Positions 5,630 through 41,322 of a stretch of DNA of 64,000 nt are shown here, piece by piece. The stretch lies in assembly GCA_951406725.2 (NCBI GenBank), contig OX597820.1, forward strand, positions 2,170,001-2,234,000. Direction: 5' to 3'. This stretch comes from Octopus vulgaris (taxonomy: Eukaryota). The notes beneath the pieces are model-generated. The model did no database searches. It had not been told where the DNA came from and was given only the letters and a program-made list of their open reading frames with translations. The number at the start of each line of letters is the position of its first letter. The first letter of the stretch is position 1. The translations under genes and the position numbers were made by a program.

Positions 5630-8600
5630 GAGGGAGAGGGGTAGGAAGGAAAGAAGGAAAAGAGGAGGAGGAAAGGAAAGAAGGAAGAAAGGAAGAAAGG
5701 AAGGAGGGAAGAAACGAAGAAAGGAAAGAACGAAGAAAGGATGGAAGGAAGGAAAGAAGGAAGGAAGAAAGGAAGAAAGTAAGGAAGGAAGGAAGGAAGG
5801 AAGGAAGGAAGAAAGGAAGAAAGTAAGGAAGGAAGGAAGGAAGGAAGGAAGGGAAGGAAGGAAGAAAGGAAGAAAGGAACGAAGGAAGGAACGAAGGAAG
5901 GAAGGAAGGAAGGGAGAAACGAACGAAGAAACGAAGAGAGAAAGGAGGGAACGAAGAAAGGAAGGAAGGAAGGGAGGACGGAAGGAAGGAAGGAAGGAAG
6001 GAAGAAAGGAAGGAAGAAAGAAAGGAAGGAAGGAAGGAAGGAAGGAAGGAAGGAAGGAAGAAACGAACGAAGAAACGAAGGAAGGGAAGGAAGGAAGGAA
6101 GGAAGGAAGAAAAGAAGAAAGGAAAGAAAGGAAGGAAGTAAGGAAGGAATGAAGAAAGGAAGGAAGGAAGAAAGGAAGAAAGGAAGGAAGGTAGGAAGGA
6201 AGGAAGGGAGAAACGAACGAAGAAACGAAGGGAGAAAGGAGGGAAGGAAGAAAGGAAGGAAAGGAGAAAGGAGGGAAGGAAGGAAGGAAGGAAGGAAGGA
6301 AGGAAGGAAGGAAGGAAGGAAGGAAGGAAGAAAGGAAGGAAGAAAGGAAGGAACGAAGGAAGGAAAGAAGGAACGAAGGAACGAAGGAAGGAAGGAAGAA
6401 AAAAAAGGAAGGAAGAAAGGAAGAAGGAAAGAAGGAAGAAAGAAAGGAAGGAAGAAAGGAAGGAAGGAAGGAAGGAAGGAAGGAAGGAAAGGAAGGAAGG
6501 AAGGAAGAATGGAAGGAAGAAAGGAAGAAAGGAAGGAAGGTAGGAAGAAAGGAAGGAAGAAAGGAAGGAAGAAAGGAAGGAAGAAAGGAAGGAAGAAATG
6601 AAAGAAAGGAAGGAAGAAAGGAAGAAAGGAAGGAAGGAAGGAAGAAAGGAAGGAAGGAAGAAGGAAGGAAGAAAGGAAGGAAGGAAGGAAGGAAAGGAAG
6701 GAAGGAAGAAAGGAAGGAACAAAAGGAAGGAAGAAAGAAAGGAAGAAAGAAAGGAAGGAAGGAAGGAAGGAAGAAAGGAAGGAAGGAAGAAAGGAAGGAA
6801 GAACGGAAGAGAGGAAGGAGGAAAGGAAGGAAGAAAGAAAGGAAGAAAGGAAGAAAGGATGGAAGAAAGGAAGGAAGGAAGAAGGGAAGGAAGAATGAAG
6901 GAAGGAAGGAAGAAAGGAAGGAAGGAAGGAAGGAAGGAAGGAAGGAAAGAAAGGAAGGAAGAAAGGAATGAAGGAAGGAACGAAGGAAGAACGGAAGAAA
7001 AGAAGAAAGGAAGAAAGGAAGGAAGGAAAGAAGGAAGGAAGGAAGGAAGGATGAAAAGATGGAAGAAAGGAAGAAAGGAAGGAAGGAATGAAGGAAGAAA
7101 GGAAGGAAGGAAGAAAGGAAGGAAGAAGGAAGGAAGGAAGGAAGGAAGGAAGGAAGGAAGGAAGAAAGGAAGAAAGAAAGGAAGAAAGAAAGAAAGAAAC
7201 GAAGAAACGAAAGTAGGAAGAAACGAAGGAAGAAAGGAAGGAAGAAAGGAAGGAAGGAAGAAAAGAAGTAAGAAAGGAAGGAAGAAAGGAAGGAAGGAAG
7301 GAAGAAACGATGGAAGGAAATAAGAGAGGAAGGAAGGAAGAAAGGAAGGAAGAAAGAGAGAAGAAAGGAAGAAATGAAGGAAGGAAGAAAGGAAGGAAGA
7401 AAGGAAAGAACGAAGAAAGGAAGGAAGGAAGGAAAGAAGAAAGGAAGAAAGGAAGAGAGGAAGGAAAGAACGAAGTAAGGAAAGAGGAAAGGAAGAAAGG
7501 AAGAAAAGAAGGAAGAAAGGGACGAACGAAGAAAGAAAGGAACTAAAAAAGGAAGGCACGAAGAAAGGAAGAATGGAACGAAGAAAAGAACGAAGGAACG
7601 AAGGAAGGAAGAAAGGAAGAAAGGAAGGAAGAAAGAAAGGAAGGAAGGAAGGAAGGAAGAAAGGAAGAAAGGAAGGAAGAATGGAAGAAAGGAAGGAACG
7701 AAGAAAGGAAGGAAGGAAGGAAGAAAGGAAGAAACGAAGGAAAGAAGGAAGAAAGGAAGGAAAAAAGAAAGGAAGAAAGGGAGGAATAAAGGAACGAAGG
7801 TAGGATTAAAGGAAGAAAGGAAGGAAGAAAGGAAGAAAGGAAGAAAGGAAGGAAGGAAGGAAGAAACGTAGAAAGGAAGGAAAAAACGAAGAAAGGAAAG
7901 AAGAAAGAAAGGAAGGAGGAAATGAAGGAACGAAGAAAGGAATGAAGGAAGAAAGGAAGAAAGGGAAAAAGATAGCAAGAATGGAAGAAACGAAGGAAGA
8001 AATGAAGTAAGGAAGGATGAAAGGAAGAAAGGAAGGGAGGAAGAAAGGAAGGAAGGAAGGAAGGAAGGATGGAAGAAAGAAAGAAATGATGAAAGTGAGG
8101 AAGAAAGGAAGGAAGGAAGAAACGATGGAAGGAAGGAAGAAAGGAAGGAAGGAAGGAAGTAAGGAAGGAAGGAAGAAAGAAAGGAAGGAAGAAAGGAAGG
8201 AAGAAAGTAAGAAAGGAAGGAAGGAAGAAACGAACGAAGAAACGAAGGAAGAAAGGAGGAAACGAAGGAAGGAAGGAAGGAATGAAGTAAGAAAGGAAGA
8301 AAGAAAGGAAGGAAGAAAGGAAGAAAGGAAGGAAGGAAGAAACGAAAGAAGAAACAAAGGAAGGAAGGAACGAAGGAAGGAAGGAAGAAAGGAAGAAAGA
8401 AATGAGGAAAGGAAGGCACGAAGAAGGAAGGAAGGACGGAAGGAAGAAATGAAGAAGGGAAGGAAGAATGGAAGAAAGGAAGGAAGAATGGAGGAAAGGA
8501 GGGAACGAAGAAACGAACAAACGAAGAAAGGAAGAAAGGAAGGAATAAAGGAAGAAAGAATGGAAGGAAGGAAGCAAGGAAGGAAGGAAGGAAGGAGGGA

Positions 8601-40800: not shown

Positions 40801-41322
40801 AAGAAAGAATGGAAGGACGGAAGGAAGGAAGGAAGAAAGAAAGGAAGAAAGGAAGGAAGGAAGGAAGGAAGGTAGGAAGGGAGGAAGAAAGGAAGGAAGG
40901 AAGGAAGGAAGGAAGGAAGGAAGGAAGGAAGAAAGGAAGGAAGGAAGGAAGGAAGAAAGGAAGGAAGGAAGGAAGGAAGGAAGGAAGAAGGAAGGATGGA
41001 AGGAAGGAAGGAAGGAAGGAAGGAAGAAAGGAAGAAAGGAAGGACTGGAGAAAGGAAGAAAGGAATGAAGGAAGAAAGGAAGAAATGAAGGAAGGAAGGA
41101 AGGAAGAAAGGAAGGAAGACAGGAAGAAAGGAAGGAAGGAAGGAAGGAAGGAAGGAAGGAAGGAAGGAAGGAAGGAAGGAAGGAAGGAAGGAAGGAAGGA
41201 AGGAAGGAAGGAAGGAAGGAAGGAAGGAAGGAAGGAAGGAAGGAAGGAAGGAGAAGAAAGGAAGAAAGGAAGAAAGGAAGGTGGGAAGGAAGGAAGGAAG
41301 GAAGGAAGGAAGGAAGGGAGGG
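5630..41322. repeat. Giant polypurine GGAA/GAAA (AAGG/AAAG) satellite, ~35.7 kb, with higher-order substructure
   Basis: The + strand is nearly all A/G throughout, with sparse C/T interruptions in recurring motifs. Sharp right edge after a pure (GGAA)n run at ~41130-41250. Confidence 0.98.

What the first reader, a model, noticed from the sequence alone, without database searches (positions are those of the whole stretch)
5630..41322. 35.7-kb uninterrupted polypurine/polypyrimidine tract
Seen: one strand stays almost purely A/G for ~36 kb. It never inverts and contains no recognisable SINE/LINE/MITE insertion, although the flanks carry roughly one element per kb. Established: homopurine mirror repeats form H-DNA triplexes and R-loops and stall forks, and GGAA arrays are ETS-factor binding platforms. 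Inference: either a young, rapidly expanding array, or one lacking the TA/TT/TAA targets used by local elements, possibly with a structural or heterochromatic role.
Basis: partly seen in the sequence, partly recalled or inferred. Interest (0 to 1): 0.7.

Follow-up and report, generated by a model that had tools for sequence, protein, structure and literature searches.

The report
Giant one-sidedly interrupted AAGG repeat array
This 36-kb purine-rich stretch is an overgrown four-letter repeat (AAGG) that likely grew in place by copying blocks of itself and shows no sign of a function, but it and three other giant purine-rich copies in the genome all carry the same one-sided spelling change, the mirror image of the one most short copies carry, which hints at an unexplained bias in how such repeats become giant.

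Summary
The tract is real in the assembly (5630-41322; 96.9% A/G; no inversion, no inserted element). It is not base-pure: 1,093 pyrimidines, longest pure run 684 bp. It is a degenerate (AAGG)n array of about 8,950 units (56% AAGG, 22% AAGA), built as a patchwork of same-orientation internal copies. It likely grew by block duplication or conversion. Purity, non-inversion and the lack of transposons follow from that, and from TA/TTAA targets being 16-30-fold rarer (not absent).

It is the largest of at least five multi-kb AAGG-based arrays found. The four polypurine ones show no shared ancestry, yet all are dominated by AAGA. Short AAGG loci mostly carry the mirror variant AAAG (22 of 27 decided loci; p about 0.004, n=4). 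The fifth array is AAGG/AATG and only 84% purine, so purity is not needed for size.

AAGA cuts long perfect mirror arms about 9-fold. Short-read contigs support both edges; length and base accuracy are unverified. I found no evidence for a structural, heterochromatic or ETS role. Long homopurine satellites are known (Drosophila); I found no report of the polarity bias, in papers or in this scan's notes.

The parts
5630..41322 (+). Degenerate (AAGG)n array, about 8,949 units: AAGG 56.3%, AAGA 21.8%, AACG 3.6%, AAAG 2.2%, AATG 1.7%; 422 frame-shifting indels
5630..5666 (+). Left edge: irregular purine seed, reached by single-copy flank contigs in 4 of 4 runs; 19- and 27-bp insertions at 5645 in 3 of 4 runs (length polymorphism at the edge)
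41130..41249 (+). Longest perfect run, (GGAA)30, at the right end; the longest perfect mirror arm in the tract is 62 bp
25097..29498 (+). About 1.7-kb higher-order tandem duplication, three copies of shared blocks at 98-99.6% identity
33865..35826 (+). About 1.2-kb tandem duplication (a 212-bp block 100% identical; about 780-bp alignment with 11 mismatches)
21862..23978 (+). About 1.4-kb tandem duplication; also shares 130-240-bp blocks with 7.4-8.6 kb, 10.2 kb and 33.9 kb (long-range same-strand patches)
11630..13130 (+). Pyrimidine-poor, indel-rich block (9-15% frame-shifted units): base accuracy uncertain
16630..20130 (+). Pyrimidine-poor, indel-rich block (4-19% frame-shifted units); contains the longest pure purine runs; base accuracy uncertain

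Best explanation
This is a degenerate AAGG microsatellite of about 8,950 units, made of same-orientation internal copies, that likely grew to 36 kb in place by recombination-type block duplication and conversion and likely has no selected function. Shown: blocks of 50-780 bp recur in tandem (1.2, 1.4 and 1.7 kb periods) and at distances up to 27 kb, always on the same strand. Inferred: an early interruption (AAGA) was amplified to 22% of units and damped 4-base slippage, so growth continued by out-of-register template switching or unequal exchange, as in minisatellites. Forks stalling at the remaining pure runs (H-DNA) may trigger these events; that step is untested. The strand stays purine because the unit and its main variant are purine and copying is direct. 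It stays free of elements because its sequence turns over fast and its insertion targets are 16-30 times rarer.
For: Patchwork: 366 of 1,960 positions lie in repeated 5-tuples of rare units, against a shuffled mean of 5.45. 50 of 71 probes have an internal paralogue. A 22-mer variant motif has 6 of 6 genome matches inside this tract. Slippage is damped: among 99 anchored paralogous spacer comparisons in the four arrays, 71 are identical, 12 differ at equal length, 10 by 4n bases and 6 by a frameshift (this selection favours stable spacers). AAGA-AAGA pairs are depleted in 4 of 4 arrays (160 vs 424 expected here). AAGA is amplified rather than constantly re-made: at homologous sites, position-4 A/G differences number 9 against 4 at position 3, and about half of the 31 differences are transversions (flank 20). 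Element absence: flank repeats have median best identity 85%, and only 6 of 116 reach 98%, giving 1.7 expected in 35.7 kb (P0 = 0.19). A published O. vulgaris count of young insertions would give 0.15 if this genome is similar (PMC13282606, passages read). Not unique: arrays of 20.4, 6.9 and 5.9 kb, a 7.2-kb AAGG/AATG array and a 5-kb A/C array. The four polypurine giants lie nearer contig ends than 37 short loci (p = 0.007, n = 4), as minisatellites are said to (PMC3356730, passages read). No host gene domain among 146 of 423 open frames within about 100 kb each side; only transposon domains.
Against: The neutral model does not explain why 4 of 4 independent polypurine giants are dominated by the same variant. 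In my crude simulation the dominant variant was spread over the four transitions and reached at most 14-17% (99th percentile), against 17-28% observed. With the 95% identity class, 3.9 insertions are expected (P0 = 0.02) before correcting for target scarcity. Frame-shifting indels rise where pyrimidines fall (rho -0.52), which could mean sequencing error in part of the tract. No fork stalling, triplex, recombination or length polymorphism of the whole array was measured. Small exons could have been missed, so an intronic position is not excluded.
Confidence: 0.62

Rival explanations
1. Polarity-driven growth: a strand- or replication-direction-specific process produces or favours AAGA interruptions, and these license polypurine AAGG arrays to become giant, for instance by breaking mirror symmetry so that forks can pass. 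This adds to the best explanation rather than replacing it.
For: Position-4 G>A is 19-31% against 1.5-3.7% for position 3 in 4 of 4 giants. Mirror-image probes gave 44 hits (41 in the four giants) against 6 hits in 6 loci of 317-860 bp. Short loci picked by pure-repeat probes lean the other way: 22 AAAG-type, 5 AAGA-type, 10 ties by junction count (n = 37), and 20, 2 and 14 by isolated units (n = 36); Fisher p = 0.004 and 0.001. No shared ancestry between giants: matches are at Markov-control level and the junction flanks are unrelated. Centres with mirror arms of 20 bp or more fall from 18.6% to 2.1% because of AAGA. Orientation-dependent fork stalling at purine tracts is established (PMC11667243, passages read).
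Against: n = 4, and the giants were first found with AAGA probes. One-sidedness itself adds little to mirror breaking (2.1% vs 3.0% when half the variants are flipped), and AAAG alone would break symmetry equally well. Recent differences show only a weak position-4 excess. Three short loci are AAGA-type too. The fifth giant uses AATG and has AAAG 2.4% vs AAGA 1.6%.
Confidence: 0.22
2. Assembly or base-calling artefact: the length is inflated or misjoined, or AAGA is a systematic long-read miscall that appears only in arrays too long for accurate reads.
For: Triplex-prone AG satellites suppress long-read coverage, and ONT miscalls some simple satellites (10.64898/2026.07.13.738322, passages and section 15 read; PMC12758392, passages read). 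The C14 array starts 30 bp after a 100-N gap. Indel-rich, pyrimidine-poor blocks. No spanning record exists in the 4 runs laid.
Against: AAGA placement is shared between paralogous blocks: 114 sites are A in all copies against 9 A/G mixed, and the recurrence rate is 0.50 for AAGA, 0.48 for pyrimidine variants and 0.49 for frameshifts. Copies differ from each other by real substitutions and indels. There is no N in the window. Both flanks are single-copy at similar depth, and their contigs end at the repeat (4 of 4 runs on the left, 3 of 4 on the right).
Confidence: 0.1
3. Functional element: an H-DNA/R-loop, heterochromatin or ETS-binding platform kept by selection.
For: 5,190 GGAA words; 5% of positions centre a perfect mirror arm of 15 bp or more, against none in the flanks; the left edge is shared with runs labelled as other organisms. 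Earlier scan notes propose transcription-factor-site satellites in this genome (unchecked).
Against: The variant pattern is locus-private, and the main variant destroys GGAA sites and mirror arms. No gene domain was found nearby. Equally skewed non-purine arrays exist. No functional data.
Confidence: 0.06

Closest known systems
AG-only simple satellite blocks of Drosophila (AAGAG, AAGAGG, AGG, AAG, AAGGAG; PMC12758392 and 10.64898/2026.07.13.738322, passages read)
   Same: Homopurine/homopyrimidine simple repeats in blocks of 8-24 kb in single reads (18 kb assembled for AAGGAG), up to megabases in total; triplex-prone and hard to sequence.
   Different: Those are purer (perfect runs up to 60-214 copies) and very abundant. 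This one is 11% diverged from its unit, has a locus-private patchwork and sits among ordinary interspersed repeats.
Compound AAAG-AAGG microsatellites (Kofler-type, PMC2644718, passages read; author name recalled)
   Same: The same motif pair, and the same proposed origin by duplication of an imperfection.
   Different: Compound loci are short and form runs of the second motif. Here the variant stays mostly single (AAGA-AAGA pairs depleted), the array is more than 15 times longer than any short locus examined, and it grows by blocks.
Human minisatellites with variant repeats (PMC3356730, passages read)
   Same: Arrays of 0.5-30 kb, interspersed variant units, conversion-like change, tendency to lie near chromosome ends.
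   Different: The unit here is 4 bp, below the 6-100 bp definition; germline mutation was not measured.
H-DNA disease tracts (FXN GAA, PKD1 PyRE; PMC11667243, passages read) and Ewing GGAA microsatellites (PMC9928584, passages read)
   Same: Homopurine mirror repeats in which interruptions damp instability; GGAA words in tandem.
   Different: The tract here is far longer and heavily interrupted; no host gene, fork stalling or ETS binding is shown.

Membership tests
Simple (micro)satellite array | Head-to-tail unit of 6 bp or less over the whole tract | tested here: met
   Period 4, 8,953 copies, 78% matches; 88.8% of aligned bases match AAGG
Simple (micro)satellite array | Change dominated by single-unit slippage | tested here: inconclusive
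   4n length changes (10) are no more frequent than equal-length differences (12) between paralogues, but the sampling favours stable spacers
Minisatellite/satellite-like array | Block duplications and higher-order periods with shared variants | tested here: met
Minisatellite/satellite-like array | Unit of 6-100 bp | tested here: not met
   The unit is 4 bp; it works like a minisatellite but is not one by definition
Dispersed satellite family (common ancestor for the giant arrays) | Shared diagnostic variants or shared flanks between loci | tested here: not met
   Cross-array matches at control level (18 vs 25, 17 vs 13, 5 vs 4, and 0 in three pairs); flank matches are only common interspersed repeats away from the junctions
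H-DNA motif | Homopurine mirror repeat | tested here: met
   5.3% of centres have an arm of 15 bp or more, longest 62 bp; flanks none of 15 or more
H-DNA motif | Triplex formed and forks stalled in cells | not testable with these tools
   Needs S1-END-seq or fork assays
Centromeric/heterochromatic satellite | CENP-A or H3K9me3 occupancy; large shared arrays on many chromosomes | not testable with these tools
   No ChIP data. The variant motif is private, and the array lies 2.2 Mb from the start of a 128.6-Mb contig
ETS-bound GGAA microsatellite enhancer | Four or more consecutive GGAA | tested here: met
   322 runs of 4 or more AAGG units (summed)
ETS-bound GGAA microsatellite enhancer | ETS occupancy and a regulated gene | not testable with these tools
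   No binding data; no gene domain among 146 of 423 frames scanned

The most novel reading that the evidence does not exclude
Giant polypurine AAGG arrays obey a polarity rule: only arrays whose interruptions replace the second G (AAGA), not the first (AAAG), grow beyond about 5 kb. A direction-specific replication or repair process at triplex-prone DNA would then both write the interruption and drive expansion, and the variant's handedness would record fork direction and predict which short repeats can become giant.
Probability: 0.2. Interest if true: 0.62.

Novelty: new member of a known kind. Interest (0 to 1): 0.35.

Why it matters
As a long homopurine simple satellite it is a known kind of DNA, and its strand purity, lack of inversions and lack of transposons need no special function. 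It is still a useful natural specimen: a gap-free 36-kb triplex-prone array whose internal variants record how a microsatellite crosses into block-wise growth. The open point is that four independent giants converge on one handed interruption, opposite to short loci. If that holds in a full census, it ties repeat expansion to a strand-specific mechanism, which bears on how interruptions govern homopurine repeat instability. It could be tested cheaply in plasmid or yeast fork assays.

Tried and rejected
Protein-coding reading: frames are stop-free for up to 743 aa (+) and 6,103 aa (-) only because of composition (K/E/R/G or F/S/L/P), and 422 indels ignore frame. Rejected.

Ongoing deamination at TpC, or oxidation at the 5' G, as the source of the variant spectrum: recent differences between paralogues show only 9 vs 4 A/G changes at positions 4 vs 3, and short loci lean the other way. 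Not supported.

Common origin of the giant arrays: a slight excess over simple shuffles vanished against a Markov control.

'Giant size needs purine purity or AAGA': refuted by the 7.2-kb AAGG/AATG array.

The isolated-unit count (12:1:7) overstated the short-locus bias; a junction count gave 11:4:6 for the first 21 loci. Both are reported.

A first probe gave 0 matches. A direct genome-wide census of long purine tracts was not obtained; the census rests on exact probes. 1,535 of 1,635 (GGAA)15 matches were not listed. 70 of 170 (GGAA)30 matches were not listed, of which 68 are expected from one 97-unit run on C28. AACG/AAGC, ATGG/TAGG and ACGG/CAGG types were not probed, or seen only as control counts (AAGT: 1).

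No RNA holder was listed for the left flank; this says nothing on expression. Read laying skips repeats and gave no spanning record. A BLAST of the tract against fetched loci is uninformative because of low-complexity masking; absence of elements rests on composition.

Earlier-findings look-ups by words or near the window returned nothing on this tract. Paper searches (listings seen) showed no report of this array type in cephalopods or of AAGA/AAAG handedness. Supplements were not opened; those of PMC13282606 and of the bioRxiv preprint (closed) may list such arrays or AAGG miscall rates.

Full report
Observation. The window is G000:C7:2,170,001-2,234,000, in a 2.80-Gb genome of 227 contigs; C7 is 128.6 Mb. 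Earlier scan notes call the genome octopus-type, and the flank SINEs fit what I recall of octopus; neither was tested. From 5630 to 41322 the + strand is 96.9% purine, and TRF reports one period-4 array of 8,953 copies. There is no inversion and no 50-bp window with more than 8 pyrimidines, so no inserted element. The tract is not base-pure: 1,093 pyrimidines in 1,042 runs, longest pure run 684 bp, longest perfect (GGAA)n 30 units.

Anatomy. Aligned to AAGG in register, 11.2% of bases differ and 422 indels shift the frame. Units are AAGG 56.3%, AAGA 21.8%, AACG 3.6%, AAAG 2.2% and AATG 1.7%. Rare units recur in the same order far above chance: 366 of 1,960 positions lie in repeated 5-tuples, against 5.45 in shuffles. 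Blocks recur in tandem at about 1.7 kb (25-29.5 kb), 1.4 kb (21.9-24 kb) and 1.2 kb (33.9-35.8 kb), and as 100-240-bp patches up to 26.7 kb apart, all on the same strand and mostly 97-100% identical. 50 of 71 probes of 300 bp have an internal partner above the best shuffled score. A 22-mer variant motif has 6 genome matches, all in this tract. So the array was built in place from its own pieces.

How it changes. Among 99 anchored spacer comparisons in the four polypurine arrays, 71 are identical, 12 differ at equal length, 10 by multiples of four and 6 by a frameshift. Unit slippage is thus no more frequent than substitution in the sampled parts, although the sampling favours stable spacers. 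AAGA-AAGA pairs are fewer than expected in 4 of 4 arrays. Recent single-base differences (31 at flank 20) include 9 A/G at position 4, 4 at position 3 and about half transversions. I infer that AAGA was amplified from early events rather than made by strong ongoing hypermutation, and that growth is by block copying. That fork stalling at residual pure runs starts these events is an inference from known H-DNA behaviour (PMC11667243, passages read) and is untested.

Why no inversions or elements. Direct copying keeps orientation, and there is no inverted homology to switch to. The flanks hold 116 repeat segments in 128,307 bp with median best identity 85%; 6 reach 98% and 14 reach 95%. Expected insertions in 35.7 kb are 32 if the tract were as old as the flanks, 3.9 for the 95% class (P0 = 0.02) and 1.7 for the 98% class (P0 = 0.19). 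A published count of young insertions in O. vulgaris gives 0.15 if this genome is similar (PMC13282606, passages read). Targets are also scarce: TA 5.9 vs 97 per kb, TTAA 0.22 vs 6.75, TTAAAA 0.03 vs 2.05.

Other arrays. Exact probes found polypurine arrays of 20.4 kb (C14, beside a 100-N gap), 6.9 kb (C3) and 5.9 kb (C6), and a 7.2-kb AAGG/AATG array of 84% purine on C7. The 37 loci picked by pure-repeat probes, other than these giants, are 94-2,271 bp. The six new loci from GAGG/AGGG probes are 122-833 bp. The window's array is the largest found, but the census is probe-based and incomplete. The four polypurine giants lie at 0.03, 0.08, 0.10 and 0.38 of the half-length from a contig end, against a median of 0.48 for the 37 short loci (p = 0.007; the fifth array was not included). 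No Pfam domain other than transposon domains was found among 146 of 423 open frames over C7 2.07-2.30 Mb; small exons could be missed.

The handedness result. In all four polypurine giants the second G changes to A at 19-31% and the first at 1.5-3.7%. A 32-base AAGA probe has 44 matches, 41 of them in the giants. Its exact mirror has 6 matches in 6 loci of 317-860 bp. Short loci lean the other way: 22 AAAG-type, 5 AAGA-type and 10 ties by junction count, or 20, 2 and 14 by isolated units (36 loci); Fisher p = 0.004 and 0.001. The giants share no diagnostic sequence above a Markov control, while the two halves of this array do (47 matches vs 19-26). Against over-reading: n is 4; three short loci are AAGA-type; the fifth giant uses AATG; and handedness adds little to mirror breaking. 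Centres with arms of 20 bp or more are 2.1% as observed, 3.0% with half the variants flipped and 18.6% without AAGA. A crude neutral simulation gave a random dominant transition at up to 14-17%, so the convergence is not reproduced, but the model is simple.

Is it real? Both flanks are single-copy with similar depth. Flank contigs run into the left edge in 4 of 4 runs, two of them labelled as other organisms, with indels at 5645 in 3 of 4. On the right, contigs in 3 of 4 runs begin 25-35 letters inside the skipped repeat. One of these runs may be the source of the assembly, and nothing spans the array. Triplex-prone AG satellites are under-sequenced and ONT can miscall them (10.64898/2026.07.13.738322, passages and section 15; PMC12758392, passages). 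Random miscalls are unlikely for AAGA, since 114 homologous sites are A in all copies against 9 mixed. However, blocks at 11.6-13.1 and 16.6-20.1 kb are indel-rich and pyrimidine-poor (rho -0.52) and cannot be checked this way.

Comparison and verdict. Multi-kb AG-only satellites are known from Drosophila, AAAG-AAGG couples are among the commonest compound microsatellites (PMC2644718, passages), and conversion-like change near chromosome ends is described for minisatellites (PMC3356730, passages). GGAA-repeat binding is shown for EWS-FLI and ETV6 in Ewing cells (PMC9928584, passages), not here. The array is a new, unusually large member of a known kind with no evidence of function (interest 0.35). 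The shared handedness of the giants is the one unexplained feature; my searches did not show it in print, and it would deserve about 0.6 if a full census confirms it.

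Noticed in passing
G000:C7:11,137,142-11,144,409 (L086 end and L085:1-6900): 7.2-kb two-unit array, AATG 47% and AAGG 35%, 84% purine, almost no C, only 1.1% frame-shifted units.
   Followed up: partly
L004:3828-8839 (C14, 1.3 kb past the 20-kb AAGG array): 5-kb strand-skewed A/C array (A 2,396, C 2,091, G 447, T 78) with AACC-like units; two giant simple arrays side by side suggest a local expansion hotspot.
   Followed up: no
G000:C14:68,701,947-68,702,046 (L002): A 100-N gap lies 30 bp before the 20.4-kb AAGG array, so that array may be longer than assembled.
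   Followed up: no
window 45609-47297: 1.7-kb degenerate (TTA)n array directly beside a LINE fragment with a zf-RVT match at 45266-45601, minus strand.
   Followed up: no
window 58491-59675, minus strand: 395-aa open frame with a reverse transcriptase domain, likely a LINE fragment.
   Followed up: no
L018:7589-10000 (+), continuing into L019: 804-aa open frame without a Pfam match; by eye it has an RT-like motif and a C-terminal GIY-YIG-like motif around an Asn-rich insert, likely a Penelope-like element (motifs recalled).
   Followed up: no
G000:C28:27,448,433-27,450,703 (L077/L078): 2.27-kb AAGG/AAAG compound tract holding the longest pure AAGG run found in the genome, 97 units.
   Followed up: partly
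G000:C18:31.272-31.274 Mb (L065/L066): 1.8-kb, 89% pure AAGG array whose main interruptions are AACG and ACGG rather than A/G changes.
   Followed up: no
L053 (C7:1-10000): The contig begins with an ATT-rich repeat and only 2 telomere-type hexamers in 10 kb, so the true chromosome end is probably not assembled.
   Followed up: no
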